A stretch of DNA of 64,000 bases from Thermoanaerobaculia bacterium (GCA_963719365.1 OY970380.1:3005885-3069884), one strand, 5' to 3'. Shown: positions 8,504-48,749, counted from the stretch's first letter. Numbers and translations: made by a program. The notes: generated by a model not told the origin, from the sequence alone.

Positions 8504-10078
8504 ATGTCCGTGATCAGCCGCCTCTTCGCAACGAAATCGCTCGACGACCTCATCGCCGGAACCCAGGAAGAGGGCCACCAGCTCAAGAAAACCCTCGGCC
8601 CATGGAACCTGATCGCGCTCGGCATCGGCGCGATCATCGGTGCCGGCATTTTCGCCACGATCGGAACCGCTGCCGCCGGTGACGCGCACCGCCCTGGCGC
8701 AGGTCCGGCGCTGATGATCTCGTTCGTCCTCACCGCCGTCGTCTGCGGATTCACGGCGCTCTGTTACGCCGAGTTCGCGTCGATGGTGCCTGTGTCGGGC
8801 TCGGCGTACACGTACTCGTACGCGACGCTCGGCGAGCTCGTGGCGTGGATCATCGGCTGGGATCTGATGATCGAGTACGCCATCGGCAACGTCGCCGTCG
8901 CCATCTCCTGGGCGAATTACATGAACACGCTGCTGGAGGGATTCGGCATCGTCCTGCCCGGTTGGCTGACCGTCGACTACGGCACAGCGATGTCGAAGAT
9001 GCCGCAAGTCGTGGCCGCGGCGCCGCACATCTTCGGCTTTCCGATCATCTTCAACATTCTCGCGGTCGGCATCGTCACGCTGATCACGATCGTGCTTGTG
9101 TGGGGCATCCGCGAGGCGGCCAGCTTCAACTTCTGGATGGTGGCCATCAAGCTCGCCGTGCTCGCCTTCTTCGTCTTCGTCAGTTTCAAGTACGTCAAGC
9201 CGGCGCACTGGCATCCGTTCGCGCCAAACGGCTTTCACGGTATCGCCACCGGCGCGGCAATCGTCTTCTTTGCCTACATCGGCTTCGATGCCGTTTCGAC
9301 GACAGCCGAGGAGGCGAAGAATCCGAAGAGGGATATGCCGATTGGGATCATCGGCTCGCTCATCATCTGCACGATCATCTACGCGATCATCGCCGCGGTC
9401 TTCACCGGCATGATCCCGTACGGCGACCTTGTGAAGAAACTCTCCAGCGAGCAAGCCGAGCCGCTGACGCTGGCGATGAAGTACGCAACGATGCCGAACT
9501 GGATGGTGGGCGTTGTGGCGTTCGGTTCCGTCGTCGCTCACACCGCCGTACTCCTCGTGTTTCAGCTCGGTCAGCCGCGCATTTTCTTCGCCATGTCGCG
9601 CGACGGACTGCTGCCGCCGTTCTTCGCCCGCGTCCATCCGAAGTTCCGCACACCGCACGTAGCCACGATCATCACCGGCATCTTCGTCGGTATTGCCGCG
9701 CTCTTCTCGTCGCTCGATGCGATGGTCGATCTGACGAACATCGGAACGCTCTTCGCGTTTTTCCTTGTCTGCATCGGCATCATCATCCTTCGCGTCAAAG
9801 ACCCGCACCGCGAGCGCTCGTTCAAGGTTCCCGGCGGCACATGGTTCCTCCCCGTGCTCGGCGCGGCGTCATGCCTCTTCCTGGCAAAGTACCTCCCGAA
9901 AGAATCGTGGTGGCGCTTCGGCATCTGGCTGCTCGTCGGGATGGTCGTGTACCTCTCATACGGCTATCGCAACAGCAAGCTGCGTAATCGAGGCAACGGC
10001 CCGCTCCTCCCACCTGGCGGCATGGTGCGGCACGACTTCAACCCCGAGCAGCAGTGGCCGGAGAAGGATGTGGAGTAG
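8504..10078 (+). CDS. APC-superfamily amino acid permease (cationic amino acid transporter-like)
   Basis: 524 aa with about 12-14 TM segments. The N-terminal region LKKTLGPWNLIALGIGAIIGAGIFATIG is characteristic of AA_permease_2/CAT proteins. Confidence 0.88.
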   Translation: MSVISRLFATKSLDDLIAGTQEEGHQLKKTLGPWNLIALGIGAIIGAGIFATIGTAAAGDAHRPGAGPALMISFVLTAVVCGFTALCYAEFASMVPVSGSAYTYSYATLGELVAWIIGWDLMIEYAIGNVAVAISWANYMNTLLEGFGIVLPGWLTVDYGTAMSKMPQVVAAAPHIFGFPIIFNILAVGIVTLITIVLVWGIREAASFNFWMVAIKLAVLAFFVFVSFKYVKPAHWHPFAPNGFHGIATGAAIVFFAYIGFDAVSTTAEEAKNPKRDMPIGIIGSLIICTIIYAIIAAVFTGMIPYGDLVKKLSSEQAEPLTLAMKYATMPNWMVGVVAFGSVVAHTAVLLVFQLGQPRIFFAMSRDGLLPPFFARVHPKFRTPHVATIITGIFVGIAALFSSLDAMVDLTNIGTLFAFFLVCIGIIILRVKDPHRERSFKVPGGTWFLPVLGAASCLFLAKYLPKESWWRFGIWLLVGMVVYLSYGYRNSKLRNRGNGPLLPPGGMVRHDFNPEQQWPEKDVE

Positions 10079-11966: not shown

Positions 11967-11995
11967 GTGTAATGATTTATCGTTGGCACCTGCCA

Positions 11996-12295
11996 ATGAA
12001 GTCCGCGTCAAAGATTAGGAATCCGAATTCACCGGGACCCGCCATCCCTCCCGGCGAGATGCTTCTCGAGGAGTTTCTGAAACCGCTTGGCGTCACTCAG
12101 GTCGATGCTTCAAAGCGGCTCGGAATCTCGTTGAACCGGTTGAACGAGATCGTGCTCGGAAAGCGCGCCATCAGCGCCGATACGGCTCTGCGATTGGCGA
12201 GCCTGTTCAAGACCTCGCCGCAGTTCTGGATGCGTTTGCAGGCTGATTGGGAACTCCATCAGGCAATCGCGCGCGCCTCGAAGAAAGCTTCGTAG
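11996..12295 (+). CDS. higA: HigA-family antitoxin / XRE helix-turn-helix protein
   Basis: IPPGEMLLEEFLKPLGVTQVDASKRLGISLNRLNEIVLGKRAISADTALRLASLFKTSPQFWMRLQ matches the HigA/VapI antidote family. I chose the start at the internal ATG (MKSASK...). No HigB-like ORF lies upstream. Confidence 0.8.
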   Translation: MKSASKIRNPNSPGPAIPPGEMLLEEFLKPLGVTQVDASKRLGISLNRLNEIVLGKRAISADTALRLASLFKTSPQFWMRLQADWELHQAIARASKKAS

Positions 12296-12302
12296 TCGCC
12301 GC

Positions 12303-13799
12303 TTACCGCTTCCACCGCAACACCGGCTGCCTGGCCGCTCTTGCTTCGTCCAGCCTTCGCACGGGTGTCGTGTGCGGTGCGCTGCGAACCAGTTCCGGGC
12401 GCTCTTCGCATTCGCGGGCGATGGCGATCATCGCGTCGCAGAAGGCGTCGAGCTCTTCTTTCGGCTCGCTTTCGGTGGGCTCGATCATCAAAGCGCCGGC
12501 GACGATCAGGGGGAAGTAGATCGTTGGCGGGTGGAAGCCGTAGTCCATCAGGCGCTTGGCGATGTCGAGCGTGTGGACGTCTTTCGGCGTTTGCAACTTG
12601 TCGCTGAAGACGACTTCGTGCAGCGACGGCGCGTCGTAGGGGAGGTGATACGAGCCGCGCAGACGGGCGCGGATGTAGTTCGCGTTCAGCACGGCGATCT
12701 GCGCGATGCGGCGCAGGCCGTCGGGACCCATCGAGCGCATGTACGTCAGCGCGCGCACGAGCACGTTGAAATTGCCGTTGAAGGCGCGGACACGGCCGAT
12801 CGAATGGGGGTGGCTGTGATCGAGATAGAACTTTCCGTCCTCGCGCTTCTCGACTGTCGGCGTCGGCAGAAACGGCACGAGCCGCTCGGAAACACCGACC
12901 GGTCCCGCGCCTGGACCGCCGCCGCCGTGCGGCGTCGAAAACGTCTTGTGCAGATTCGAGTGGATGACGTCGATGCCCATGTCGCCGGGGCGTGCGATGC
13001 CGACGAATGAATTGAGATTCGCGCCGTCGCAGTAGAGATAGGCACCTTTGTCGTGGAGGATCTCGGCGAAGCGCTTGATGTCCGTTTCGAAAACGCCGAG
13101 CGTGTTCGGCACCGTGATCATCAGCGCGGCGACGTCTTCGGTCACCGCGGCAGCGAGCGTGTCGATGTCGACGGTGCCGCGATTGTTCGACTTCAGTTCT
13201 TTGATCTGGTAACCGGCGAAAGCGGCCGACGCCGGGTTCGTGCCGTGCGCGGAATCGGGGATGAGGATGTATTTGCGCGCGTTGCCACTCTTCGCCAGCG
13301 CCTTGTGCACCATCAGGATGCCGGTGAGCTCGCCGTGTGCGCCGGCGACCGGTTGCATCGTCACGCGTGGCAGACCGAAGATCTCTTTCAGCGTTTGCTC
13401 GATGTGCCAGATGAGGCCGAGGTTGCCTTGAACCTGATGATCGGGTTGGAGCGGATGCGACAGCGCAAAACCGGGCGTTCGCGCTAGCTCTTCATTGAGC
13501 CGCGGGTTGTGCTTCATCGTGCACGATCCGAGCGGGTAGAGGCCGGCGTCGATCGACACATTCAGTTTCGACAGCCGCGTGAAGTGCCGGATCACATCGA
13601 CCTCGGACACCTCGACCTCATCGACGATCTCGCCGCGCCGCAACGCCGCCGACAACGCCTCGGCATCTTCAGGCACATCGAGATCCGGCAGTTTGTAGCC
13701 GCGCCGGCCGCGCTTCGAATGCTCGAAGATCAACCCTTCGCGATTCGCGCTTTGCGGCACGGCAGTGGTCGCGGCATCGCTTTCGAGAATCGTGGTCAT
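12303..13799 (-). CDS. gcvPB: glycine dehydrogenase (decarboxylating) subunit 2
   Basis: The start MTTILESD overlaps the gcvPA stop (ATGA). The PLP region SNLHKTFSTPHGGGGPGAGP is present. The protein is about 498 aa. Confidence 0.93.
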   Translation of the reverse strand: MTTILESDAATTAVPQSANREGLIFEHSKRGRRGYKLPDLDVPEDAEALSAALRRGEIVDEVEVSEVDVIRHFTRLSKLNVSIDAGLYPLGSCTMKHNPRLNEELARTPGFALSHPLQPDHQVQGNLGLIWHIEQTLKEIFGLPRVTMQPVAGAHGELTGILMVHKALAKSGNARKYILIPDSAHGTNPASAAFAGYQIKELKSNNRGTVDIDTLAAAVTEDVAALMITVPNTLGVFETDIKRFAEILHDKGAYLYCDGANLNSFVGIARPGDMGIDVIHSNLHKTFSTPHGGGGPGAGPVGVSERLVPFLPTPTVEKREDGKFYLDHSHPHSIGRVRAFNGNFNVLVRALTYMRSMGPDGLRRIAQIAVLNANYIRARLRGSYHLPYDAPSLHEVVFSDKLQTPKDVHTLDIAKRLMDYGFHPPTIYFPLIVAGALMIEPTESEPKEELDAFCDAMIAIARECEERPELVRSAPHTTPVRRLDEARAARQPVLRWKR

Positions 13800-19657: not shown

Positions 19658-20008
19658 CTAACTCCCTCGATACGTTGAATATCCATACGGGCTGAGCAGC
19701 AGCGGCACGTGGTAATGCTGTGCCCCCTTTTCCACCATGAACTCGATCACGACGCGCGGAAAGAATCCCTCGGGATTGTAGGAGCCCGTATCGAAGGAGA
19801 TCCTGTACAAGCCCGGCTCCGGCATCTCGTCGACGAATTTCAATCGTCCGTCAGCGTCGGTCGAGCCGCTGGCGATGATCACCCATCCTTCGCGATCCAT
19901 TTGCGGTTCACGAGGAGGCGCCATGTGGGGACCGTGGCTGAGGACGACTTTGATTCCGGCTGCTGGCCGTCCTTTCGTCGTGTCGAGAATGTGCGTCGAA
20001 ATACCCAT
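19658..20008 (-). CDS. uraH: 5-hydroxyisourate hydrolase (transthyretin-like)
   Basis: 116 aa starting MGISTHILDTTKGRPAAG and ending in the family-diagnostic YRGS. Its start overlaps the upstream stop (TGATG). Confidence 0.9.
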   Translation of the reverse strand: MGISTHILDTTKGRPAAGIKVVLSHGPHMAPPREPQMDREGWVIIASGSTDADGRLKFVDEMPEPGLYRISFDTGSYNPEGFFPRVVIEFMVEKGAQHYHVPLLLSPYGYSTYRGS

Positions 20009-21477
20009 CAGCCCACCAGTTTCATCAGACGTAATTTCGTGATCTTCATCTGCTCTGCGGCGGCGATTCGCAATTCCTCGTCGGGCGCATTCTCCAACCG
20101 CTGCCAGGCCATCGCCAGCATCTCGTCGGCACTGCGGCCGGTTGCGCAGACGATGTAGATGTATCCGAAACGCGCTTCGTATTCGCGATTCGCCGCCGCC
20201 AGCGCGTCCATGCTTTCGCTCGACGCCGATGCCGTCCCCGATTGTTCCTGCCGCGCCCAGCGCGATGCCGATCGCTCGCCGATCCGCGGATGCGCGGCAA
20301 ACGCTTCGCGCCAATCGTCCGCCATCAGGCCATTCCAGATCTCCTCGGACGCATGCATCAAGTCATGACCGCTCGCAAACGGACGCGCCGCCAGCATCCG
20401 CCGTACCCACTCGCCCGATCCGCAACAGTTGCGCAGTTGCGCAGCGGCAACATCGTCAGTCAGAGTGCTGACGTACTTTCCGGCGGCATTCGCGCGGCCT
20501 TCTTCCGAAGCCACGCCGAAGACGCGCAGCCGGCTCACACCGCCGTCGGGAAAAACGTTCAGCCGCAGGTGCGTCACCGGCCCGTTCTGCTCCAGCTCAT
20601 CGATGAAGAGATGCCGCGTGTGCGCCTGCAACTTCGTTCGCGGCAAAATATCGAACCATTCATTGCTGGCGAATGCGCGCGTGCCCTCGATCGAAGCAGT
20701 GTCGGGATAGTTGCCTTTGAAGTGATTCGTGTCCACCTCGATGCGCTTCACGACACCCTCGGCGGCAAGTTGCACGATCACCCAATCGTGTCCCGGCCCG
20801 CGCCGCCGCTTCGTCTCCCAACCATCGCTCATGTTGGCCGCGCGGCCCGGCATGATCAGGTTGTGCTTCGGACCGAAGAACATGTCGCTGCACGCCAGCA
20901 CGTCGCCGCCATGTTCTGCCGCGGCGAGATCCGTCTCGATCGACAGGCCGCCCTCGCGGCGCCAGTCGGGAACCACTTCGCCATGCACGCGCAACCGCGC
21001 CACGCCGCCGTCGGGAAAGATGCGCAGCCGCAAATGCGTGAACGCAAACGCCGAACCGGTCGCGAAGAGATTCTCCGAATTGCCCTCGAGATCGGACTTC
21101 GGAAGAATCTCGATCCAGTTCGTCGACTCCGACAACAACTTCTCCACATCCGCCTCGGGACGCGCCGCGCACGCCTCGATCGAGCATTGCGCCGGATAGT
21201 TCCCCCGAAAAAACGCCGTATCGACGACGACACCACGCACGATGCCGCGAAGCCCGAGCCGGATAATCGCGAAGTCGTGACCGGGAATCCGCTTCCGACG
21301 GCTCTCCCACCCATCCATCCACTTCCCGCGATCGGTGTACTCGTGCTCTTTCCATACCGGCTTCGATGCCTTGAGAAGATTTTCCTTCTCCGCGAAATAG
21401 TCGTCGGTGGCATAGAGCACGGAGCCGCCGAGGCGCTCGGAAGCGAGATCGAGGAGATCCTGGAAGTTTGTTGTCAT
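20008..21477 (-). CDS. allantoicase fused to OHCU decarboxylase
   Basis: 489 aa. Two allantoicase repeats are present (GWESRRKR..., GWETKRRRGPGHDW...). The C-terminal ~160 aa (CCGSGEWVRRMLAARPF...AHPRIGE...FGYIYIVCATGRSADEML) match OHCU decarboxylase. Confidence 0.85.
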   Translation of the reverse strand: MTTNFQDLLDLASERLGGSVLYATDDYFAEKENLLKASKPVWKEHEYTDRGKWMDGWESRRKRIPGHDFAIIRLGLRGIVRGVVVDTAFFRGNYPAQCSIEACAARPEADVEKLLSESTNWIEILPKSDLEGNSENLFATGSAFAFTHLRLRIFPDGGVARLRVHGEVVPDWRREGGLSIETDLAAAEHGGDVLACSDMFFGPKHNLIMPGRAANMSDGWETKRRRGPGHDWVIVQLAAEGVVKRIEVDTNHFKGNYPDTASIEGTRAFASNEWFDILPRTKLQAHTRHLFIDELEQNGPVTHLRLNVFPDGGVSRLRVFGVASEEGRANAAGKYVSTLTDDVAAAQLRNCCGSGEWVRRMLAARPFASGHDLMHASEEIWNGLMADDWREAFAAHPRIGERSASRWARQEQSGTASASSESMDALAAANREYEARFGYIYIVCATGRSADEMLAMAWQRLENAPDEELRIAAAEQMKITKLRLMKLVG

Positions 21478-21500
21478 TTATCTTTCAGCAACAAGAAGAA

Positions 21501-21593
21501 CCGAATGTTGAATGTTCAGTGTTGAGTGTTGGATGTTGAATGAAACACGCGGCGATCACCGACTCCATTCAACACTCAACACTCAACATTCCG
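21501..21593. repeat. heptad-periodic palindromic element (TGTTGAR family), copy 1
   Basis: The sequence is ccgaatg ttgaatg ttcagtg ttgagtg ttggatg ttgaatg, then a 22-nt spacer, then cattcaa cactcaa cactcaa cattccg. It sits in the allB-allantoicase intergenic spacer. Confidence 0.85.
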
Positions 21594-21607
21594 CTTTTGA
21601 CGCACCT

Positions 21608-22933
21608 TCACCCACGCACCCACTCCCCGACAGTCCCGCCCAAATGCCGGCCATCCTCCCACACCTTGTGGCCGCGAACGAACGTCGCTTTCACGACGCC
21701 GCTCAGCGTTTCGCCCGCATACGGTGTGACCTTGTGCCGGTGTTGCACGAGCTCCGTCTTCACGACGAAACGCTTCTCCGGATCGAAGACGACGATGTCC
21801 GCATCGTACCCGGCAGCGAGGCGTCCTTTGCGCTTGTCCAGTCCCGCCAGCGTCGCCGGACCGATCGTCATCAGCTCCACGATTTTCTCGAATGCAATCC
21901 CACGCCGCTTCGCCTCGGTCCAGACAATCGGCAATCCAAATTGCAGCGATGCGATGCCGCCCCAGGCCCTGGCGATGTCGCCTTCCTCCATCCGTTTCAA
22001 CTCCGGCGTGCATGGCGAGTGATCGCTGACGATGGCGATGAACAAGCCTTCTTCGATGCCGCGCCACAACGCATCGCGGTTGGCGCGTTCGCGGATCGGC
22101 GGCGCGCATTTGAACTCCGTCGCGCCGTCCGGCACACGCTCGGCGTCGAAGTAGAGATAGTGCGGCGTCGTCTCCGCCGTCAACGGCACATTCGCATCGC
22201 GCGCGCGCCGGATCGTCTCCAGTCCATTCGCAGACGACAGATGAACGATGTGCGCCTTCGCCCCCGTCTTGCGCACACATTCATACACCAGCGCAATCGC
22301 CGCATCCTCGGCCTCATGCGGCCGCGACGCGAGATAGCTCGCATACGAGCTCGCATCATCGCCATGTGCGTGAAGATGCTCGCCCAACTCCGCATGAACG
22401 AGCAGCGGCGCGTTCGTTCCACGCAATTCGTTCAGCGCTTTTTCCAGACCAGCGGCATCGAGATGCCCAAACTCCGGAACGCCCGAGTCGACCAGAAAAC
22501 ACTTGAAGCCGCGGGCGCCGGCTTCGAGCATCGGCCGGAGCTGACCCGCGTTCCCCGGCACCGCACCGCCCCACAACGCAACATCGACGCGGCACTTGCC
22601 CTGAAGCGCATGAACCTTCGTCTCCAGTGCCGAAACCGAAGTCGTCGGCGGAATCGAATTCAACGGCATATCGACAATCGTCGTCACGCCGCCCGCCGCC
22701 GCCGCATGCGTCGCCGTCTCAAACCCCTCCCACTCCGTCCGCCCCGGCTCATTCACATGCACGTGCGAATCGACCACGCCCGGCATCAGCGTCAGCTCGC
22801 CGAAGTCGTCAATCGCGACACCGTCAGCAACATGGTCGTACGCGCCAACACGATCGATAACCGCACCCTTCACATGAATCGTCGCCGGACGAATCCCCTC
22901 CGGCGTAACGACATTGCGGCTGCGAAGAATCAC
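21608..22933 (-). CDS. allB: allantoinase
   Basis: Cyclic amidohydrolase motifs are present (PGVVDSHVHVNEPGRTEWEGF, metal-binding His/Asp). I chose the start at GTG 22933 (VILRSRNVVTPEG), which overlaps the upstream stop as GTGA. The longer ORF would overlap the DUF5131 gene. Confidence 0.85.
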   Translation of the reverse strand: MILRSRNVVTPEGIRPATIHVKGAVIDRVGAYDHVADGVAIDDFGELTLMPGVVDSHVHVNEPGRTEWEGFETATHAAAAGGVTTIVDMPLNSIPPTTSVSALETKVHALQGKCRVDVALWGGAVPGNAGQLRPMLEAGARGFKCFLVDSGVPEFGHLDAAGLEKALNELRGTNAPLLVHAELGEHLHAHGDDASSYASYLASRPHEAEDAAIALVYECVRKTGAKAHIVHLSSANGLETIRRARDANVPLTAETTPHYLYFDAERVPDGATEFKCAPPIRERANRDALWRGIEEGLFIAIVSDHSPCTPELKRMEEGDIARAWGGIASLQFGLPIVWTEAKRRGIAFEKIVELMTIGPATLAGLDKRKGRLAAGYDADIVVFDPEKRFVVKTELVQHRHKVTPYAGETLSGVVKATFVRGHKVWEDGRHLGGTVGEWVRG

Positions 22934-23685
22934 GCGGTGGATGATAGCGGACGAGCGGCTCCAACCACGGGCATGTAGTCGTACGTGCGCCCGTTCAGCT
23001 CCCGGCCGGCCTTTTTCTTGCGTACGCCTCCCCATTGCTTGAAGAAGAACGGCACGTGCGACGCTTCGCACTGGTCAAGGAGCGACGTAACCCATTCGCG
23101 CCTCATCGGACGAGCGCCTGGTCCTGATTCGCCGCCGACAATGACCCAACTGATGCCGGCCAGGTCAATCTCGCCAAGATCTTCCAGAAGCGGCTCGATT
23201 GAAAGAAAGCGAACAGCAGCGGGTGTATCCCGAAGATGATCGATCCTTGGAACGCCGTATTTGCGATCCTCCACGCTCACTCCCCACCAGATGTGAGGCA
23301 TCGCGGCAATCTCGCGGAGCTCACCGCTCAGCATCGAACGGAGGCGCTGTGAGCGCTTGGTCAGGACCTGAAACACATGCCAATCTGCTCGGCGCATCAC
23401 GTCCGCAACAGCTAGTACATAGCCGGCTGCCACTTCATCCTGAAAGAGATCGCTCATTGAGTTGACAAAGATGTTGCGGGCGCTCGACCAGCGAAGCGGG
23501 ACATCGAGCTTTTCAGGTACCAATCGGAGATCAAAGCCTTGTTCGTATGGATGTCCCGGAACTCCCCGAAAGCGTTCCGCAAAAGTCGCTGCATAGCAAT
23601 TCTTGCAGCCGGGACTCACCTTCACGCAACCCCGAACCGGGTTCCAGGTTGCATCGGTCCATTCGATCGTTGATTTATCTGACAT
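22930..23685 (-). CDS. phage Gp37/Gp68 family protein (DUF5131), three-Cys-motif protein
   Basis: MSDKSTIEWTDATWNPVRGCVKVSPGCKNCYA... is the characteristic N-terminus with the C-x6-C-x2-C motif. The gene is about 251 aa and markedly lower in GC than its flanks. Confidence 0.85.
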   Translation of the reverse strand: MSDKSTIEWTDATWNPVRGCVKVSPGCKNCYAATFAERFRGVPGHPYEQGFDLRLVPEKLDVPLRWSSARNIFVNSMSDLFQDEVAAGYVLAVADVMRRADWHVFQVLTKRSQRLRSMLSGELREIAAMPHIWWGVSVEDRKYGVPRIDHLRDTPAAVRFLSIEPLLEDLGEIDLAGISWVIVGGESGPGARPMRREWVTSLLDQCEASHVPFFFKQWGGVRKKKAGRELNGRTYDYMPVVGAARPLSSTA

Positions 23686-23690
23686 TGCTC

Positions 23691-24548
23691 TCACATAAAC
23701 GAAAACTTCGTTTGAGTACGCGTGTACTTCTTGCATTCATCCCAGAATCGACCCGCCAAGGGAGCGCGGCTGAAGAATGACAGATGGTAAATCACCGAGT
23801 TCTTCTCGTTCTTGATGGTTCGTGTACTTGGCACGCCTTCCCATAGAAAACCCAGCCGCTCCATCGCCAATCCGAACTGGTCGACGAAGAAACTTGCAAA
23901 CCCTCGACGATTTTGCTCTTCGATTTTCCACGCGTCCCGCCAAGCAGGATTGTCCAGAAAATCCGCGTACAGGGAGTTCTCTTGGCGAGTGTTTCTCTGA
24001 GCGTCCATACCAGATGGGATCAGGCACAGAAAGTCGATCCTTCGTTTGCCTTCCGCAAGCTGCCTGATCGTTTCGAACTTGAGATTCTTGATGTTGAACG
24101 GATCGACAAAGCAAAACGTCAACACACGGTTACCAGAAGAGTACGGTGGAATTAGGCTCAGTACTTGCCCCACAGTGGCATTTGAGTCGCCTGGCACGTA
24201 ACGAACGTCCCGGTCCGGATAGTCAAGCCTAACGCGCGACTTTAGCGCTTCGATGTTCGCTTCATCGAGATCGCAGAAGATATATCGATCGAAAGGGTCC
24301 GTGATACCAAGAGCGAGAAGCGGCGATGCTGGAACAATTCGGCCGGAGTCCCTCAATCGCGCCCGGCCAGCTCCCGAGTAGAGGTCGATGTAGATGCGCT
24401 GCTCCCACTTGTTTTTCATCGAACGCGCAAAGACCTGCGCATAACAACTGACGAGTTGATATTTCTCTTCGGCCCATTCGCCCACGACTGGAGTGGCCAA
24501 CCCGTCATCTGCCAGTGATGGCAATGCTTCCATGAATAAAGAGTACAC
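23691..24548 (-). CDS. tcmP: three-Cys-motif partner protein TcmP
   Basis: 285 aa. The N-terminal region EWAEEKYQLVSCYAQVFARSM...IYIDLYSGAGR and its position directly upstream of a Gp37/Gp68 gene fit the TIGR04474 description as I recall it. The gene is low in GC. Confidence 0.7.
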   Translation of the reverse strand: MYSLFMEALPSLADDGLATPVVGEWAEEKYQLVSCYAQVFARSMKNKWEQRIYIDLYSGAGRARLRDSGRIVPASPLLALGITDPFDRYIFCDLDEANIEALKSRVRLDYPDRDVRYVPGDSNATVGQVLSLIPPYSSGNRVLTFCFVDPFNIKNLKFETIRQLAEGKRRIDFLCLIPSGMDAQRNTRQENSLYADFLDNPAWRDAWKIEEQNRRGFASFFVDQFGLAMERLGFLWEGVPSTRTIKNEKNSVIYHLSFFSRAPLAGRFWDECKKYTRTQTKFSFM

Positions 24549-24595
24549 ATCGGCGGGTCATCCTCCAAATTAACTACAGGCGGTAGAACCTCTGT

Positions 24596-26941
24596 CTACA
24601 TCTGCGGCGCCGCCACTTCGCGCGCATCGGCTCCGCGGACGGCGTGACGGTAATCGCTCATCCGCATCAGAATCTCTTCGCCCGTTGCAGGTGCGTGCAG
24701 CCTCGGGATCTCGCCTTCGCTGAGGTAAGACAGCGCGTTCTTCACGGCCATCCAGACGGAGATCGCCAGGACCAGCGGCGGCTCGCCGGTGGCTTTGCTC
24801 GATCGGATATTCAGCGCGTTTTCGGCGTCGATCCAATCGACGTTGAAGATTGGCGGAACGTCCTGAATGTTGGGGATCTTGTATGTTGTCGGTGAGTGCG
24901 AAAGCACGTTGCCTTTGGCGTCGTGCCGCACTTCTTCGTTCGTCAGCCAGCCCATGCCCTGAATGAACGCGCCGGTGATCTGGCCGCGGTCGATGCCGGG
25001 ATTGATCGGCTTGCCGATGTCCATGAGCAGATCGCTGCGGCGCACGTGCATCATGCCGGTGAAGCGGTCGATCTCGACTTCGGAAATTGCGGTGCCCTGC
25101 GTGAAATAGAGGAACGGCGCGCCGCATCCTTTGTCAACATCCCAATCGAGACCTTGCGTCGAATAAAAACCGCGCTCGCCGACGGAGACGCGCTCGAGGT
25201 GACACATCTTCACGAGCGCGGGAAACGGAACGCGTTGCGGGGGATTGCGGCGATCGAACACTTCGCCATTTTCGAAAACGATCTCGTCTGCCGATTGCTC
25301 GATGCCATCGACGCGCTCGAAATACTCGGCGGCAACGTCCGCCATGCGCGCGCGAATTTTCCGGCAGGCGTCGGCGGCGGCGCTGCCATTGAGATCGGCG
25401 CCGCTCGACGCCGCGGTCGCCGAGGTGTTGTTGTTTTTCTCGGTGGAGGTGGCCATGAGTTGCACGTGCCCGGCATCGATTCCGAATTCGTCGGCCACGA
25501 TCTGGCGGATCTTCGTATTGACGCCCTGCCCCATCTCCGTCGCGCCTGTCGAGACCTGCACCGAACCGTCGAGATAGACGTTGACGAGCGCGTTGGCCTG
25601 ATTGAGGAACTTTGTGTTGAACGAGATTCCGAACTTCACGGCCGTGCAGGCGATGCCGCGCAAATGCGTGCGCGATGACGCGTTGAAATCGGCGACCTGC
25701 GCCACGCGCTCGTGATAGTCGCCGCGCTTCGCGATCTCATCGAAGAGGTGCGGCAGGTGATTGTTGCGCACGACCTGACCGTATGGCGTGGTGTTGCGGT
25801 CGTCGATGCCGTAGCAGTTGCGCCGGCGGATCTCGAACGGATCCTTTTTCAGAACGATCGCGATCTCTTCGAGGATCGTCTCGATCGTGGCGATTCCCTG
25901 TGGTCCGCCGAAACCTCGAAAGGCCGTATTCGGCGGATAGTTCAAACGGCAGACCGTCCCCCGAATCAGCGCATTCGGCAGGTAGTAGGCGTTGTCTGCG
26001 TGCGTCAGCGCGCGGCCGAGCACGGACGTGGAGAGATCAGCGAACGCGCCGCCGTCGGAGTAGAAATCGATCTGCGCGGCGGTGATCACGCCGTCGTCAT
26101 CGAACGCCACTTTGTAGTCGTTCTGGAACGGATGGCGCCCACCGGTGACGCACATGTCGTCGTCTTTCCCGTACGCGATGCGCGCTGGACGTTTGAGTTT
26201 GTGCGCGACGAGCGCCGCGATCGTTGCTGGATGGGTGGCCTGACATTCTTTGCCACCGAATCCGCCGCCCATTCTCTTCGTCACGACGACCACTTTGTTG
26301 ATCGGAAGCCCGAGGAGGTGCGCGATGACGTCCTGCACCTCGGAAGGATTCTGCGTCGATGAATGAACGGTGAGCTGATCGAATTCGCCCGGCACCGCCA
26401 GCGCCGCCTGCGACTCGAGATAGAAATGATCCTGGCCGCCGTTGACGAACGTTCCTTCGAGAATGTTCTTCGCCGAGGCGAAGGCGGTCTCGACATCGCC
26501 ACGCCGAATCGTGCTCGTCTTGCCGATGAAGAGGCCGCGCTTCTTCGCCTCATCGATGGTGAAGACCGGCTCCAGCTCTTCGATGTCGATCTTGATCGCT
26601 GCCTTCGCGGCACGAATCGCGGCGCGCGACTCCGCGGCGATGACGACGATCGGGTGCCCGATGAACGACACCACATCCTCGGCCAGCAGGAACTCGTCCT
26701 GAATGATCGCGCCGAAGAGGTTGTGGTGCAGATCGCGATACGTGAAGAGACCGGCGATACCGGGCAACGCGCGGGCGGCGTCGAGGTCGATCGCGCGGAT
26801 GCGTCCGTGCGCGACCGGCGACCAGACAAAGTCGACGATCAGCTCACTGCGCAGCGGCGCCATATCGTCGATGTAAACCGATTCGCCGCTGACGTGACCA
26901 GCGGCCGAATCGTGCGGGATGTTTTTTCCGACCGAGGGCAT
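24596..26941 (-). CDS. xdhB: xanthine dehydrogenase molybdopterin-binding subunit
   Basis: I chose the start at ATG 26941 (MPSVGKNIPHDSAAGHVSGESVYIDD). XDH-type active-site motifs GGGFGGKE, AFRGFGGPQG and KATGEPPL are present. The upstream 48 codons of the tracked ORF just read through the repeat element. Confidence 0.88.
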   Translation of the reverse strand: MPSVGKNIPHDSAAGHVSGESVYIDDMAPLRSELIVDFVWSPVAHGRIRAIDLDAARALPGIAGLFTYRDLHHNLFGAIIQDEFLLAEDVVSFIGHPIVVIAAESRAAIRAAKAAIKIDIEELEPVFTIDEAKKRGLFIGKTSTIRRGDVETAFASAKNILEGTFVNGGQDHFYLESQAALAVPGEFDQLTVHSSTQNPSEVQDVIAHLLGLPINKVVVVTKRMGGGFGGKECQATHPATIAALVAHKLKRPARIAYGKDDDMCVTGGRHPFQNDYKVAFDDDGVITAAQIDFYSDGGAFADLSTSVLGRALTHADNAYYLPNALIRGTVCRLNYPPNTAFRGFGGPQGIATIETILEEIAIVLKKDPFEIRRRNCYGIDDRNTTPYGQVVRNNHLPHLFDEIAKRGDYHERVAQVADFNASSRTHLRGIACTAVKFGISFNTKFLNQANALVNVYLDGSVQVSTGATEMGQGVNTKIRQIVADEFGIDAGHVQLMATSTEKNNNTSATAASSGADLNGSAAADACRKIRARMADVAAEYFERVDGIEQSADEIVFENGEVFDRRNPPQRVPFPALVKMCHLERVSVGERGFYSTQGLDWDVDKGCGAPFLYFTQGTAISEVEIDRFTGMMHVRRSDLLMDIGKPINPGIDRGQITGAFIQGMGWLTNEEVRHDAKGNVLSHSPTTYKIPNIQDVPPIFNVDWIDAENALNIRSSKATGEPPLVLAISVWMAVKNALSYLSEGEIPRLHAPATGEEILMRMSDYRHAVRGADAREVAAPQM

Positions 26942-27004
26942 GGGGAAAGTATAACGGGGAGGCGGTGGGTTGGCGCGGGCTCGGCTGGAATCGAGCTCGA
27001 AGAA

Positions 27005-27117
27005 GCGGAATGTTGAATGTTGGGTGTTGAATGTGAATGTTGAATGTTGAATGCCCGCGAGCTTCTTTTTCACTTCATTCAACATTTACACTCAACATCC
27101 AACATTCAGCATTCCGC
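27005..27117. repeat. heptad-periodic palindromic element (TGTTGAR family), copy 2
   Basis: The sequence is gcggaatg ttgaatg ttgggtg ttgaatg tgaatg ttgaatg ttgaatg, then a spacer, then attcaac atttacactcaac atccaac attcagc attccgc. It has the same CGGAATG/CATTCCG ends as copy 1 and lies between marR and xdhB. Confidence 0.85.
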
Positions 27118-27137
27118 TGTTCACCGCGAACGGATGC

Positions 27138-45227: not shown

Positions 45228-46496
45228 ATGAGACGCGTCCTCGTCGTTGCCGCACTCTTCGCCACCATCGCTCTTCGCGCCCGCGCGAACGTGCTGCGGC
45301 TCAACGTCAACGATACGATCCAGCCGATCAGCGATGAGTTCATCGGGCGGGCGCTCGATCAGGCCCAGCGCGAGCACGACGATGCGGTGATCCTCGTCAT
45401 CAGCACGCCGGGTGGTCTGCTCGACTCCACGCGCTCGATCGTCGAAAAGATCATGACCTCGCGCGTGCCGGTGATCGTTTTCGTCGCGCCGGCGGGGAGC
45501 CGCGCGGCATCGGCGGGATTCTTCATCCTCGAGGCGGCAGACATCGCCGCCATGGCTCCCGGCACGAACACCGGCGCTGCCCATCCGGTCCTCTTCGGCG
45601 AAAAGATGGACGAGATCATGAAGGTGAAGATGGAGAACGATGCCGCCGCCTTCATGCGCACGATCGCGGCGAAGCGCGGCCGGAACGTCGCGGTCGCGGA
45701 GAGCGCCGTGCGCGAGTCGAAGTCGTTCACGGAACAGGAAGCGCTGGCGCAGAAGCTGATCGATGTGATCGCGCCCAACGACCGCGCGCTGCTCATGGCG
45801 ATCAACGGCCGGACGCTCAAGCGTTACGACGGAACGATGACGACACTTCACCTGACGAACGAAAACATCAACACCGTGAAGATGTCGCTGCGTCAGAAGA
45901 TGATGTCCGCGCTGATGGATCCAAACTTCGCTTTCCTTCTGCTGGTCCTCGGCGGGCTGGCCATCTTCGCGGAGTTCAACCACCCGGGAGCGATTGCGCC
46001 TGGCGTCGTCGGCGTGATCGCGATCCTTCTGGCGCTGTTCGCGCTGAACCTGCTGCCGGTTCGCTACGCTTCGCTGGCGCTCTTGGTTGCGGCGTTCATT
46101 CTCTTCGCGCTCGAGGCCAAGTTCGCCAGCCACGGCGTCCTCGGCGCGGGCGGAATCGTCTGCATGGTCATCGGCGGACTCTTTCTCGTCGACGGACCGA
46201 TTCCGCAGATGCGCGTGAACATCCTCACCGCACTCGCCGTCAGCATCCCCATCGGCTTGATCGCCGTTTTCCTGACGACGCTCGTGTTACGCGCGCGGCA
46301 TGGCAGGGTGTCGACCGGCAGCGCCGGCATGATCGGCGAGATCGGCGTAGCCCGAACGTCAATCGGTACGGATGGAAAAGTCTTCGTTCACGGCGAGCTG
46401 TGGAACGCCGTGGCGAAGAGCGTGATCCCGGAAGGCTCGCGCGTCCGCGTGGCCGGAATCAACGGATTGCATCTGCTAGTCGAGCCGGCGGAGTAG
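45228..46496 (+). CDS. nfeD: NfeD-family membrane-bound ClpP-class serine protease
   Basis: 422 aa. It has a signal peptide, a ClpP-like domain (VISTPGGLLDS...AASAGFFI), TM helices and a C-terminal OB-fold region (KVFVHGELWNA). Confidence 0.85.
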   Translation: MRRVLVVAALFATIALRARANVLRLNVNDTIQPISDEFIGRALDQAQREHDDAVILVISTPGGLLDSTRSIVEKIMTSRVPVIVFVAPAGSRAASAGFFILEAADIAAMAPGTNTGAAHPVLFGEKMDEIMKVKMENDAAAFMRTIAAKRGRNVAVAESAVRESKSFTEQEALAQKLIDVIAPNDRALLMAINGRTLKRYDGTMTTLHLTNENINTVKMSLRQKMMSALMDPNFAFLLLVLGGLAIFAEFNHPGAIAPGVVGVIAILLALFALNLLPVRYASLALLVAAFILFALEAKFASHGVLGAGGIVCMVIGGLFLVDGPIPQMRVNILTALAVSIPIGLIAVFLTTLVLRARHGRVSTGSAGMIGEIGVARTSIGTDGKVFVHGELWNAVAKSVIPEGSRVRVAGINGLHLLVEPAE

Positions 46497-46827
46497 AGAA
46501 ACCGCAGGACACGACGGTACCGCCGATCTCGCTGTCGTTCGACGATGCAATTAAGGCTTTTCTAGGGACGCCACCGCCGAAGAAAACGAAGCGCTAATGA
46601 AAGCAACACTTAGGGCTGAGTGAGTTCCTTTGGCTTGACTCTCCCCTAGCTATCCTTTACTCTTTGCAATAGGTTAAGACAAACGAGTTCTTCGGGAGGG
46701 GTGTATCTTTCTGCCTTCGGGAGTAAACATCGTTGTTCACTGCGTTTCCGCAAGCGAGAGCGGCGAACGCGGTGCCCGCCTTCGGAGCAACATGCAAATG
46801 ACAAGCAACCGCTAGCGCTCCAATCAC

Positions 46828-48339
46828 ATGAACCTGCTAACTTCACATTTCGACTTTCTCTCACCTCTCGACACCCGATACTACGGCGCGGAAGCCCCAT
46901 TCTTCGCTGCGCTGCATCCGTATCTCTCCGAAAATGCAACCCTGAAATACCAGTTACAGGTTGAGCAGGCATTGCTGGCGGAGTTGGAGACGGAAGGGCT
47001 GGCTCCGCCGGGTACATCGAAATCGCTCGCCGAAGCCTTGGCCGCGAACCCCATTACCCCCGAAGAGGTCTACGCCGAGGAAGAGAAGATACATCACAAC
47101 ATCCGGGCTCTAGCCAACTGCATCCGCGCGAGACTTTCTGAAGAGCGCAAACCGTTCGTCCACTTGTTCGTCACGTCGAACGACATCATGGACACAGCTC
47201 GCTCACTTGCCTTTCGTGATGTCGTGCGCGAGGTTGTTTTGCCGGATCTCCATGAACTCCTTGAAACTATCGTCGGGATCGCGCGACAGCATGCCGACAC
47301 GGTTCAAATCGGCCGGACGCACGGTCGGCATGCTGTACCGCTGACGCTCGGTTATTGGCTGGCAAACTACGTTGACCGGATTGGTCAGCGAATGGAGAAT
47401 CTTGCCACGTCGACAGGGAATCTCCGTGGGATGGTTTCGGGCGCTGTAGGTGCCCATAACTCTTTCGCGTTGAAATGGCCGACCGATCCCGCTCTTTTCG
47501 AGCAGATGATGCTCAAACGCCTTGGGCTGAGGGCATCGGACACCGCAATCTCAACGCAAGTCGTCCAGCCAGAATACGTCACGGATTTCGCCCATTCTAT
47601 CGTTTCTGCTTTCTCGGTCCTTGCAAACCTAGCTGATGATTATCGCAACCTGATGCGCAGCGAAATCGAGGAAGTTGGAGAAAACGATACTTATCGCGTA
47701 GGTTCATCGACGATGCCCCACAAGGTCAATCCGAAGAACTTTGAAAACGTGAAGAGCCTTTGGAAGGCTTTCATGCCCCGGATGACTACCGTGTACATGG
47801 ATCAGATCAGCGAGCATCAGCGTGACCTTACGAACAGCGCTAGTAGCCGTTTCCTCAACGAGCTGATCGCTGGGTTCGACTACGCCGTTCGACGCTTGAA
47901 CAAAGCGATTGGTGGCACGGTTGTCAACGTTGATCCGCTGAAGCGTAACTTTGACTTGGGTCGGCAGTGGACGGTAGCAGAACCGTTGTACATTGCCCTA
48001 GCGCTCTCTGGCGATCATGATGCCTACGAGACTTCAAAGAATTTGGTCAAGAAGTGTCGAGATGAAGGCGTCGGGTTATTGGATTACTTGCATTCACCCG
48101 GCGGCAGCAAAACGATTGATTCCTTGCTACCCATGTTTCAGCGGATAGTGTTGGCTCCTGAAGAGTATTTGGGCGACGCTCCGTCACGCACTTTGTTCGT
48201 ATGTGACCATTGGTGGGGAGTGCTGGGAGAGCAGCCTGGCCGGGCAAACCCGTTGAATACTCTTACTGGCCGACTCGCTCGGCCTCGTGACGATGAAGCG
48301 CTGATCGCTACCGCTGGCAGTTATGCGTATTTAGGTTAG
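46828..48339 (+). CDS. adenylosuccinate lyase-like enzyme (fumarate lyase superfamily)
   Basis: 503 aa with N-terminal LSPLDTRYYG and the superfamily signature GSSTMPHKVNPKNFE. The gene is lower in GC than its surroundings and has a ~50-aa C-terminal extension. Confidence 0.8.
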   Translation: MNLLTSHFDFLSPLDTRYYGAEAPFFAALHPYLSENATLKYQLQVEQALLAELETEGLAPPGTSKSLAEALAANPITPEEVYAEEEKIHHNIRALANCIRARLSEERKPFVHLFVTSNDIMDTARSLAFRDVVREVVLPDLHELLETIVGIARQHADTVQIGRTHGRHAVPLTLGYWLANYVDRIGQRMENLATSTGNLRGMVSGAVGAHNSFALKWPTDPALFEQMMLKRLGLRASDTAISTQVVQPEYVTDFAHSIVSAFSVLANLADDYRNLMRSEIEEVGENDTYRVGSSTMPHKVNPKNFENVKSLWKAFMPRMTTVYMDQISEHQRDLTNSASSRFLNELIAGFDYAVRRLNKAIGGTVVNVDPLKRNFDLGRQWTVAEPLYIALALSGDHDAYETSKNLVKKCRDEGVGLLDYLHSPGGSKTIDSLLPMFQRIVLAPEEYLGDAPSRTLFVCDHWWGVLGEQPGRANPLNTLTGRLARPRDDEALIATAGSYAYLG

Positions 48340-48425
48340 CGAAGCGGCGAGTCCTCGAAATCCGAGGACTTCGCACAGGAGCTGTTCGACTGGCTCGCGG
48401 AGGTGGGGCTGGAAGAGGCGCGGAA

Positions 48426-48623: not shown

Positions 48624-48749
48624 TGCGCGCCTCCGTTTGGTTCGACGGAGCCTACAGCTAACCCGCTCAATCTGGCCGATTTAGGGCCTCGCGCAAATAA
48701 CCTAACCCTGCGTGGGTTTGCAAAGGACATAATCTCGGAGTTTCTTTTT

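What the first reader, a model, noticed from the sequence alone, without database searches (positions are those of the whole stretch)
22930..24548. Low-GC TcmP + Gp37/Gp68 (DUF5131) two-gene module wedged inside the purine catabolic operon
A gene pair lies between xdhB (stop at 24596) and allB. Its GC is visibly lower: single 60-nt lines give about 43-50%, against roughly 65-70% (estimated by eye) in the flanks. The pair encodes a three-Cys-motif partner protein (TcmP-like) and a Gp37/Gp68 family protein with C-x6-C-x2-C. As far as I know this conserved pair has no established function. The three-Cys protein family has been noted to resemble radical-SAM cluster binding and to occur in phage and defence contexts.

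The module is on the same strand as the operon and tightly packed. There is a 5-nt gap between the two genes, and the second gene's stop overlaps the proposed allB GTG start (GTGA). It would therefore be co-transcribed with, and translationally coupled to, ureide catabolism genes.
Basis: partly seen in the sequence, partly recalled or inferred. Interest (0 to 1): 0.75.

Follow-up and report, generated by a model that had tools for sequence, protein, structure and literature searches.

The report
Accessory TcmP/DUF5131 pair in purine operon
Two low-GC genes of unknown function, a radical-SAM-like enzyme and a methyltransferase-like partner that is listed as a candidate anti-phage pair, sit in the tiny spacer between two purine-breakdown genes, a spot where related bacteria carry nothing or other defence-like genes.

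Summary
On the minus strand, TcmP (23691-24533/24548; TIGR04474, 135 bits) and DUF5131 (22930-23685; PF07505, 322 bits; Cx6Cx2C) lie between xdhB and allB. They are 5 nt apart, and the DUF5131 stop overlaps the allB start (GTGA). GC is lower, but less so than stated: 54.7% against 61.1%, and GC3 about 0.60 against 0.74-0.78.

The insertion reading is supported. About 90 related contigs show that the xdhB-allB spacer (27 nt in its shortest form) is a variable hotspot.
- Many relatives have an empty site, including one with 95% XdhB identity.
- At least nine branches carry a TcmP/DUF5131 pair of several types.
- Other relatives carry a NucC-like nuclease, a DUF4760 protein or a kinase there.
- One lineage keeps a 197-bp direct repeat of the xdhB 3' end bracketing the pair.

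The pair is not recent junk: dN/dS is 0.04-0.10, and its divergence matches the flanks.

TcmP models as an RlmJ-like class I SAM methyltransferase fold. DUF5131 is radical-SAM-like. The pair matches PADLOC candidates PDC-M41/M30 and occurs in prophage lysogeny regions and defence islands.

The most likely role is an accessory SAM-dependent nucleic-acid-modifying module involved in phage conflict, not purine metabolism. Its biochemistry is untested. It is a new member of a known, uncharacterised kind.

The parts
23691..24548 (-). tcmP: three-Cys-motif partner protein with a class I SAM-methyltransferase fold (RlmJ-like). The likely true start is the ATG at 24533 (280 aa).
   Evidence: TIGR04474 scores 135.3 bits against a cutoff of 53. 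PADLOC PDC-M41A scores 84 bits. The AlphaFold model has pLDDT 91, and the best PDB match is RlmJ at TM 0.55. Motif I D55-L-x-x-G59-x-G61 and C146-F-x-D149-P150 are invariant. Homologues are 280 aa and start at the ATG.
22930..23685 (-). DUF5131 / Gp37-Gp68 family, a radical-SAM-like enzyme with Cx6Cx2C and a GGESG motif. Its last ~6 codons are read from the native allB leader.
   Evidence: PF07505 scores 321.8 bits. PDC-M41B scores 336 bits. phrog_2045 also matches. C20, C27, C30 and G184-G185-E186 are invariant. The TIGR04471 radical SAM mobile pair A match has E 8e-19. Homology of the empty site L125 resumes at 22950.
24534..24595 (-). Leader of the inserted module, between the xdhB stop and the tcmP start.
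   Evidence: Homology to the empty-site relative L125 ends at 24596. The leader ending in TTATTC-ATG is shared with L082. No promoter- or terminator-like site was found here.
22933..22950 (-). Native allB leader (motif GCTATCATCC) plus the GTG start. It is fused to the 3' end of DUF5131 and marks the right boundary of the insertion.
   Evidence: The motif CCGCTATCATCC-CCGC-GTG is conserved upstream of allB in both empty and occupied sites.
24596..26944 (-). xdhB, xanthine dehydrogenase molybdopterin subunit: the left flank of the hotspot. The real start is probably at 26944, not 27085.
   Evidence: TIGR02965 scores 904 bits. Homologues are 781 aa, and nucleotide homology starts at about 26944-26967.
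21608..22933 (-). allB, allantoinase: the right flank of the hotspot.
   Evidence: TIGR03178 scores 544.7 bits against a cutoff of 357.85.
20008..21477 (-). Allantoicase fused to OHCU decarboxylase, the next gene downstream in the operon.
   Evidence: The orthologues in L081, L082 and L086 carry Pfam Allantoicase and OHCU_decarbox.
19658..20005 (-). 5-hydroxyisourate hydrolase (transthyretin family), the last gene of the operon.
   Evidence: PF00576 scores 108 bits.
27138..27572 (-). MarR-family regulator upstream of xdhB on the same strand. The only sigma-70-like promoter match of the region lies just upstream of it (27613-27584).
   Evidence: PF12802 and PF01047 match.

Best explanation
The pair is an accessory, horizontally exchangeable two-gene module. 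It occupies a variable hotspot in the intercistronic spacer between xdhB and allB of a Thermoanaerobaculia-like purine-catabolic operon. It is not part of purine metabolism.

DUF5131 is the conserved catalytic subunit. It is a radical-SAM-like enzyme whose Cx6Cx2C motif is presumed to hold a [4Fe-4S] cluster that cleaves SAM. TcmP is a fast-diverging, swappable partner with an RlmJ-like SAM-methyltransferase fold. It most likely binds SAM and supplies substrate or target specificity.

Together they most likely install or process a SAM-derived modification on nucleic acid. This would serve phage-host conflict, as defence or as protection from restriction. The module corresponds to the PADLOC candidates PDC-M41/M30.

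In this genome the native spacer has been lost. The DUF5131 frame runs into the allB leader. The pair is probably expressed by read-through from the marR-xdhB promoter, and allB translation is probably coupled to it.

Shown: the family membership, the fold of TcmP, the insertion with its polymorphism and hotspot character, and purifying selection.
Inferred: cluster binding, SAM chemistry, a nucleic-acid substrate, a role in phage conflict, and co-transcription.
For: Family calls.

Insertion and hotspot:
- Empty sites occur in close relatives, and the breakpoints are exact.
- The pair is present on at least nine separate branches of the XdhB tree, interleaved with empty sites.
- Three different pair types occupy the same site. 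L139 has TcmP at 25% identity and DUF5131 at 73%. L117 has DUF5131 at 37% identity and the reversed gene order.
- Other cargo occupies the same site: a DUF6602/NucC-like nuclease in L109 and L113, DUF4760 in L114, and a Ser/Thr kinase in L131, L150 and L086.
- A 197-bp direct repeat of the xdhB 3' end brackets the pair in L082 and L111/112/152.
- GC3 is lower in all carriers.

The module is functional: dN/dS is 0.04-0.10 and dN matches the flanks.

Conflict and mobile contexts elsewhere:
- In Gordonia phage BaxterFox the pair lies between the integrase and the immunity repressor.
- L090 has it next to an integrase and a TIR protein.
- L088 has it in a TIR/SLATT/nSTAND/NucC-like island.
- 181 phage records carry DUF5131.
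- Two proviral contigs carry convergent pairs.

Enzymology:
- TcmP matches RlmJ at TM 0.55 with probability 1.0.
- The methyltransferase motifs of TcmP are invariant.
- A TcmP 52% identical to this one (tblastn) pairs with a canonical CxxxCxxC SPL-family radical SAM enzyme.
- RadicalSAM.org places DUF5131 in the radical SAM superfamily, Megacluster-5-2 (PMC9477430).

The partner diverges much faster than the enzyme. TcmP/DUF5131 identities across carriers are 92/90, 73/89, 82/86, 63/74, 49/75 and 25/73. L091 has a mosaic TcmP.
Against: - No experiment on any member of either family was found. PDC-M30 and PDC-M41 are only candidates.
- DUF5131 has no significant structural match in the PDB. The best radical SAM hit is SkfB at TM 0.49, E 0.04.
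- DUF5131 has no PF04055 hit.
- DUF5131 shows no profile similarity to the SPL-like partner.
- There is no nuclease or other effector in the two-gene unit, so a defence mechanism is not obvious.
- Window-type TcmP is rare in isolated phages and viral contigs.
- The pair has been kept at this one site for a long time, and in four lineages its stop overlaps the allB start. That could hint at a link to the operon.
- TcmP motif IV is D-P-F/Y rather than the DPPY of amino-methyltransferases.
Confidence: 0.6

Rival explanations
1. DNA-repair module. DUF5131 would act like spore photoproduct lyase and directly reverse a DNA lesion by radical chemistry, with TcmP as an accessory or SAM-handling subunit. 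The pair would be kept as a stress or repair function rather than for phage conflict.
For: RadicalSAM.org groups DUF5131 with SPL and MJ0683-like 'DNA repair photolyases' in Megacluster 5. Weak Foldseek hits to SPL exist. TcmP can pair with an SPL-family enzyme. DUF5131 is extremely conserved, at about 73% identity across phyla, which fits a universal substrate such as DNA. In phages it sits among recombination and replication genes. In L086 a DNA_alkylation repair gene and DinB-family genes lie nearby.
Against: A repair enzyme would not need a rapidly diverging, swappable partner. The patchy presence/absence among close relatives, and replacement by nucleases at the same site, fit conflict genes better. 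The prophage lysogeny-region location fits that too. Similarity to SPL is not significant.
Confidence: 0.15
2. Small-molecule antiviral synthesis. The radical-SAM-like enzyme and the methyltransferase-like partner would convert a nucleotide into a modified analogue that poisons phage replication. This resembles prokaryotic viperins in logic but not in ancestry.
For: It is a two-enzyme unit with no nuclease or effector. It occurs in defence contexts. High conservation of DUF5131 fits a universal small substrate.
Against: There is no homology to viperin. The closest TcmP fold match is an RNA-base methyltransferase with a helical substrate-recognition subdomain. The high variability of TcmP is hard to reconcile with a fixed small-molecule substrate.
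Confidence: 0.1
3. Domesticated metabolic function. In this lineage the pair would have been recruited to purine or ureide catabolism, for example cofactor maturation or processing of a purine intermediate. That would explain its position and its overlap with allB.
For: It sits on the same strand inside the operon. The stop/start overlap with allB occurs in four lineages (WIN type, L139, L002, L086). It is retained under purifying selection across relatives with XdhB identity down to about 70%.
Against: Many close relatives run the same operon without it. Unrelated cargo replaces it at the same site. Homologues at about 50-57% (DUF5131) and about 48-52% (TcmP) identity occur in prophage-like elements and defence islands with no purine genes. 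GC3 remains foreign. TcmP is frameshifted in L086/L087 while the operon is intact.
Confidence: 0.05
4. Functionless passenger. The pair would be a decaying remnant of a mobile element that persists only because removing it would disturb the operon.
For: No integrase or repeats remain in the window. The native spacer is deleted, so precise excision is no longer possible. TcmP is frameshifted in one lineage.
Against: Both frames are intact. dN/dS is 0.04-0.10 over dS of about 0.4 to saturation. All catalytic-looking residues are conserved.
Confidence: 0.05

Closest known systems
PADLOC phage-defence candidates PDC-M41 (A+B) and PDC-M30 (A+B)
   Same: Both proteins hit the A and B models and are adjacent. 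PDC-M41A scores 84 bits, PDC-M41B 336 bits and PDC-M30B 331 bits. The architecture is the same: a TcmP-like protein plus DUF5131.
   Different: These are bioinformatic candidates. No anti-phage test or mechanism was found in the literature searched. Here the pair lies inside a metabolic operon rather than in a classical defence island.
NCBIfam TIGR04474 TcmP with PF07505 (phage Gp37/Gp68, DUF5131) partner pair
   Same: Both score above the curated cutoffs. The genes are adjacent with the partner upstream, and the three-Cys motif Cx6Cx2C is present.
   Different: Nothing differs at the family level. This instance adds the chromosomal hotspot context and the fusion to the allB leader.
Radical SAM enzymes of the spore photoproduct lyase group (RadicalSAM.org Megacluster 5)
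   Same: It has a three-Cys motif near the N-terminus, a GGE-type motif and an alpha/beta partial-barrel prediction. A close TcmP relative pairs with a canonical CxxxCxxC SPL-family enzyme.
   Different: The spacing is Cx6Cx2C rather than CxxxCxxC. There is no PF04055 hit, no significant structural or profile match to SPL, and no biochemical evidence.
RlmJ / DUF519 (23S rRNA m6A2030 methyltransferase)
   Same: It is the best structural match of TcmP (TM 0.51-0.55, probability 1.0). Both have a class I Rossmann fold with motif I and an acidic-Pro-aromatic motif after strand 4, plus an inserted helical subdomain.
   Different: Identity is 12-13% and there is no sequence-level hit. The motif is D-P-F/Y rather than DPPY. 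TcmP always works beside a three-Cys enzyme.
Defence hotspots between conserved core genes (variable islands with alternative cargo)
   Same: The flanks are conserved (xdhB, allB). The site is empty in many relatives. It carries alternative low-GC cargo, including a NucC-like nuclease and several pair variants.
   Different: The hotspot is an intercistronic spacer of about 27 nt inside an operon. Cargo is usually co-oriented, and no integrase or mobile-element backbone is present.

Membership tests
[quoted passage not shown] | Whole-protein HMM score above the curated cutoff | tested here: met
   135.3 bits against a cutoff of 53, covering profile positions 1-260 of 263.
[quoted passage not shown] | Encoded next to a three-Cys-motif (DUF5131 or radical SAM) protein | tested here: met
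   There is a 5-nt gap to DUF5131. The same adjacency is seen in all related loci.
PF07505 DUF5131 / phage Gp37-Gp68 | Pfam score above the gathering threshold over the full model | tested here: met
   321.8 bits against 28.9, covering model positions 1-243 of 243.
PF07505 DUF5131 / phage Gp37-Gp68 | Conserved N-terminal Cx6Cx2C | tested here: met
   C20, C27 and C30 are invariant in 57 sequences.
Radical SAM superfamily | Canonical CxxxCxxC cluster motif | tested here: not met
   The spacing is Cx6Cx2C. This is a variant spacing, so membership rests on other features.
Radical SAM superfamily | Match to the PF04055 Radical_SAM profile | tested here: not met
   There is no hit even at E<=10. 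A sub-threshold hit to TIGR04471 'radical SAM mobile pair protein A' (E 8e-19, 68 bits against a cutoff of 355) shows homology to a family that NCBI names radical SAM.
Radical SAM superfamily | GGE-type SAM-binding motif and partial TIM-barrel fold | tested here: inconclusive
   G184-G185-E186-S-G is invariant. The model is alternating beta/alpha. The best radical SAM structural hits are weak: SkfB at TM 0.49 and E 0.04, SuiB and SPL.
Radical SAM superfamily | [4Fe-4S] cluster and reductive SAM cleavage | not testable with these tools
   This needs anaerobic reconstitution, spectroscopy and a 5'-deoxyadenosine assay.
PADLOC PDC-M41 / PDC-M30 candidate defence system | Adjacent genes hitting both the A and B models | tested here: met
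   PDC-M41A has E 2.9e-24, PDC-M41B E 2.6e-101 and PDC-M30B E 1.2e-99. The PDC-M30A match is weak at E 6.6e-06.
PADLOC PDC-M41 / PDC-M30 candidate defence system | Demonstrated protection against phage | not testable with these tools
   No experimental report was found. Only prevalence listings in Pseudomonas surveys turned up.
Class I SAM-dependent methyltransferase (RlmJ-like) | Rossmann methyltransferase fold | tested here: met
   The model has pLDDT 91. RlmJ is the top match at TM 0.55, and 264 PDB matches at E<=0.001 are nearly all SAM methyltransferases. The viral library also returns methyltransferases.
Class I SAM-dependent methyltransferase (RlmJ-like) | Motif I (acidic-x-x-x-G-x-G) and motif IV (D/N-P-P-Y/F) | tested here: inconclusive
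   Motif I, D55-L-[FY]-x-G-x-G, is invariant. Motif IV reads D149-P150-F/Y with a single proline. Catalytic competence is unknown.
Restriction-modification system | A cognate endonuclease next to the modification genes | tested here: not met
   Only two genes lie between xdhB and allB. Neither has a nuclease domain.
Integrative mobile element / genomic island | Integrase and flanking direct repeats | tested here: not met
   The window has no integrase and no repeats around the pair. A 197-bp direct repeat exists only in the L082 and L111/112/152 lineage. An integrase lies next to the pair in the unrelated L090.

The most novel reading that the evidence does not exclude
TcmP/DUF5131 is a mechanistically new radical-SAM-based system for nucleic-acid modification or defence, with the methyltransferase-fold partner as a swappable specificity subunit. 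In this lineage its expression has been captured by a MarR-controlled purine-catabolic operon. It would then be induced by purine breakdown products, such as those released when DNA is degraded during phage infection.
Probability: 0.08. Interest if true: 0.8.

Novelty: new member of a known kind. Interest (0 to 1): 0.4.

Why it matters
The TcmP/DUF5131 pair is widespread. The TcmP profile finds about 4,500 clusters (50% identity), more than 8,000 close DUF5131 relatives were scored, and 181 phage genomes carry DUF5131. It is catalogued as a candidate defence system but has no known chemistry.

This locus does not reveal the chemistry. It does supply useful material:
- natural series of related operons with the site empty, occupied by different pair types, or occupied by other defence-like cargo;
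- evidence that the pair is a selected, functional unit;
- a structural assignment of TcmP as an RlmJ-like SAM-binding fold;
- evidence that TcmP partners interchangeably with DUF5131 or a canonical SPL-family radical SAM enzyme.

It also shows that a spacer of about 27 nt inside a metabolic operon can act as a hotspot for accessory genes.

Tried and rejected
- Sequence search of both proteins against the PDB found nothing meaningful.
- Foldseek of the DUF5131 model against the PDB gave no hit at E<=0.001.
- A profile comparison of DUF5131 with the SPL-like TcmP partner of L088 found no similarity. The profile was shallow, with Neff 1.8.
- Pfam at E<=10 gave no Radical_SAM hit for DUF5131 and no methyltransferase hit for TcmP.
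- Literature searches used DUF5131, TcmP, TIGR04474, PF07505, PDC-M30/M41, COG4422, DUF6602 and radical SAM plus defence terms. They returned only listings and no functional study.
- The IMG/VR scan with the TcmP profile found only two contigs.
The metagenome scan showed many empty and differently filled sites.
- A foreign origin for one copy of the 197-bp repeat in L082 was rejected. Both copies resemble local relatives, and the downstream copy is merely more decayed.
- The two other low-GC stretches of the window (46-49 kb and 51-54 kb) hold ordinary genes.
- The promoter/terminator scan found nothing inside the module.
Full report
**1. What is in the window**

The minus strand carries a co-oriented gene row:
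- a MarR-family regulator (27138-27572);
- xdhB (24596-26944; TIGR02965, 904 bits);
- a 285-aa ORF (23691-24548);
- a 251-aa ORF (22930-23685);
- allB (21608-22933; TIGR03178, 545 bits);
- an allantoicase/OHCU-decarboxylase fusion (20008-21477);
- a 5-hydroxyisourate hydrolase (19658-20005).

The first of the two middle ORFs is TcmP (TIGR04474, 135.3 bits against a cutoff of 53). The second is DUF5131/Gp37-Gp68 (PF07505, 321.8 bits). DUF5131 carries C20-x6-C27-x2-C30.

The two genes are 5 nt apart. The DUF5131 TGA overlaps the allB GTG as GTGA. Homologues of TcmP are 280 aa and begin at the position of the ATG at 24533, so that is the more likely start.

**2. Composition**

The module is 54.7% GC against 61.1% for the whole window. 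Same-size windows have sd 2.3%, and only 1.6% of them are as low. GC3 is 0.60 for TcmP and 0.61 for DUF5131, against 0.74-0.78 for xdhB, allB and alc. 60-nt lines average 55% in the module and 62% in the flanks.

**3. Is it an insertion?**

The first relatives I retrieved all had the same order, xdhB-TcmP-DUF5131-allB-alc. These were L002, L081, L082, L086, L091 and L093, from Thermoanaerobaculia-type MAGs and soil metagenomes.

Three results came from that set:
- In all of them the pair has lower GC3 (0.56-0.69 against 0.75-0.86).
- dN/dS against the window is 0.04-0.10.
- In the closest relative, dN and dS of the pair equal those of the flanks. For L093, dS is 0.41-0.57 in the pair and 0.43-0.61 in the flanks.

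So the pair is functional and has been inherited with its flanks in this clade.

A scan of metagenome contigs with XdhB then gave 80 more loci at 64-95% identity. These changed the picture.
- About 25 loci have xdhB followed directly by allB, with gaps of 27-500 bp. One is L125 (XdhB 95%, AllB 91%), which sits next to the module-bearing L097 in the XdhB tree.
- The pair is present on at least nine separate branches, interleaved with empty sites.

Against the empty site L125, window homology stops exactly at the xdhB stop (24596). It resumes at 22950, 17 nt before the allB start. The motif GCTATCATCC-CCGC-GTG is the native allB leader in both empty and occupied sites. In the window the DUF5131 frame has lost its own stop and reads through this leader. 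This explains both the 251-aa length (245-246 aa elsewhere) and the GTGA overlap.

In L082 and L111/112/152 the pair is bracketed by a 197-bp direct repeat (92% identical) of the xdhB 3' end. This is an insertion scar of the kind left by recombination of a segment that carried that xdhB end. Both copies resemble local relatives, and the downstream non-coding copy is the more decayed.

**4. The site is a hotspot**

Other relatives carry different things at the same position:
- a pair with a quite different TcmP (L139: 25% identity, strong PDC-M41A hit) but a similar DUF5131 (73%);
- a different pair in reversed order (L117: DUF5131 at 37% identity, followed by a TcmP-like protein);
- a 328-aa DUF6602/NucC-like PD-(D/E)xK nuclease (L109, L113);
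- a DUF4760 protein (L114);
- a Ser/Thr kinase with PD40 repeats (L131, L150, L086, L138);
- a desaturase, a glycosyltransferase, or low-GC tandem repeats.

The same DUF6602 nuclease family sits immediately upstream of a TcmP pair in a TIR/SLATT/nSTAND island in L088.

TcmP diverges or is exchanged much faster than DUF5131. TcmP/DUF5131 identities across carriers are 92/90, 73/89, 82/86, 80/86, 63/74, 60/73, 57/74, 49/75 and 25/73. L091 has a mosaic TcmP whose first 55 residues are nearly identical to the window and the rest about 70%. In L086/L087 TcmP is frameshifted near residue 231.

**5. What the proteins are**

TcmP models with high confidence (pLDDT 91). Its best solved match is RlmJ, the 23S rRNA m6A2030 methyltransferase (TM 0.51-0.55, probability 1.0). 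A long list of class I SAM methyltransferases follows. The residues D55-L-[FY]-x-G59-x-G61 (motif I) and C146-F-x-D149-P150-[FY] are invariant.

DUF5131 models moderately well (pLDDT 83; the Cys loop has low confidence) as an alternating beta/alpha domain. Its PDB matches are weak and include the radical SAM enzymes SkfB (TM 0.49), SuiB and SPL. None reaches E<=0.001.

Other evidence bearing on DUF5131:
- The three cysteines and G184-G185-E186 are invariant.
- It hits TIGR04471 'radical SAM mobile pair protein A' below threshold (E 8e-19).
- RadicalSAM.org lists DUF5131 as Megacluster-5-2, beside SPL (PMC9477430).
- A TcmP 52% identical to the window's (tblastn) is paired in L088 with an SPL-family protein. 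That protein has a canonical C36-x3-C40-x2-C43 motif.
- DUF5131 is unusually conserved, at 70-75% identity to proteins from Sorangium and other phyla.

**6. Where else the pair lives**

- PADLOC lists the architecture as candidates PDC-M41 and PDC-M30.
- DUF5131 occurs in 181 phage records, mainly Mycobacterium, Gordonia and Burkholderia phages.
- In Gordonia phage BaxterFox an unannotated DUF5131 gene converges on gp42. That protein is a TcmP (175 bits) and lies between the integrase and the immunity repressor.
- Two IMG/VR contigs show the same convergent pair.
- L090 has TIR-TPR, TcmP, DUF5131 and an integrase in a prophage-like region. L089 adds an Sll1717-type P-loop ATPase.
- The TcmP profile finds 4,491 clusters (50% identity) at E<=0.001 among 1.84 billion proteins.

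**7. Literature**

No paper in the held library reports a function for either family. The hits are annotation tables, prevalence lists and the RadicalSAM.org classification.

**8. Interpretation**

The pair is an accessory module in a hotspot, not a purine-catabolic function. The most likely mechanism is a two-subunit SAM-dependent enzyme acting on nucleic acid. DUF5131 would do the radical chemistry, and the variable RlmJ-like TcmP would give substrate or target specificity. This would be used in phage-host conflict. I put about 0.6 on the accessory, conflict-related, nucleic-acid-modifying reading as a whole, and less on any specific chemistry.

The rivals are:
- an SPL-like DNA-repair role (0.15);
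- viperin-like small-molecule synthesis (0.10);
- a recruited metabolic role (0.05);
- a functionless passenger (0.05).

Co-transcription with the operon and translational coupling to allB are plausible. The genes share a strand, no promoter- or terminator-like sites lie inside the module, and the stop and start overlap. Neither has been demonstrated.

**9. Verdict**

The locus is a new member of a known but uncharacterised kind. The added value lies in the hotspot, the insertion scar, the evidence of selection, the TcmP fold, and the interchangeable radical SAM partners.

Noticed in passing
window 27004-27118 and 21495-21596: Two long imperfect palindromes are built from tandem GAATGTT heptamers, with arms of about 26-43 nt that are about 91% complementary. 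They are the only two such sites in the 64 kb (10 heptamer-array matches against 0 expected). Both lie in intergenic spacers of the purine operon (marR-xdhB and allB-alc). The allB-alc copy is conserved in relatives. They could be an operator array or an mRNA hairpin.
   Followed up: partly
window 26945-27085: The mechanical xdhB ORF (829 aa from 27085) over-extends through the heptamer palindrome. Homologues are 781 aa and homology starts near 26944, so the real start is probably the ATG at 26944.
   Followed up: partly
L096 (Gordonia phage BaxterFox NC_031226.1) 4001-4750 (+) and 4747-5733 (-): A full-length DUF5131 gene (50% identical to the window's) is not annotated. Two small opposite-strand ORFs (genes 40 and 41) are annotated over it. 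The convergent gene 42, annotated 'hypothetical', is a TcmP (TIGR04474, 175 bits). The pair lies between the integrase and the immunity repressor.
   Followed up: yes
L095 (Mycobacterium phage prophiT36-2a) 4001-4906: The DUF5131 homologue is annotated 'RNA methyltransferase'. It sits after a DNA methyltransferase and RecE/RecT-like genes, and no TcmP was recognised next to it.
   Followed up: no
L082 9737-9933 and 11587-11783 (also L111, L112, L152): A 197-bp direct repeat of the xdhB 3' end exactly brackets the TcmP/DUF5131 pair. A 63-bp-period tandem repeat array (11979-12342) lies in the spacer before allB.
   Followed up: partly
L113 9021-9260: A strongly diverged fragment of an xdhB 3' end (49% aa identity) lies just upstream of the DUF6602 nuclease cargo. 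This suggests the cargo arrived together with a piece of a foreign xdhB.
   Followed up: no
L086 / L087 about 8680-8700: TcmP is frameshifted near residue 231 in this lineage, in both an NCBI MAG and a JGI contig. In L087 DUF5131 is called as only 169 aa. This may be decay of the pair or a shared assembly error.
   Followed up: partly
L091 9140-9997: TcmP is mosaic. The first ~55 residues are about 98% identical to the window and the rest about 70%, while the neighbouring genes are 89-95% identical. This indicates allelic recombination within tcmP.
   Followed up: partly
L088 6819-9906: A DUF6602/NucC-like nuclease, a TcmP and a canonical CxxxCxxC SPL-family radical SAM protein lie in a row inside a TIR/SLATT/nSTAND island. 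This may be a three-gene variant of the system.
   Followed up: partly
L125 8347-8632: The empty xdhB-allB spacer of this close relative is itself a long inverted repeat (GGAGTGCGGGCGTCTCGCC ... GGCGAGACGCCTGCACTCC) around about 250 nt.
   Followed up: no
window 46081-49360 and 51361-54430: These are two further stretches with GC below 57%. They hold ordinary-looking genes (an adenylosuccinate-lyase-like lyase, an SPFH/Band 7 protein, a Ser/Thr kinase with DUF5684, and DUF2752).
   Followed up: partly
window 27138-27572: The MarR-family regulator heads the operon. Urate-responsive MarR regulators of uricase genes are known from my own knowledge (e.g. HucR). If this is one, the inserted pair would be urate-inducible. 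This was not tested.
   Followed up: no
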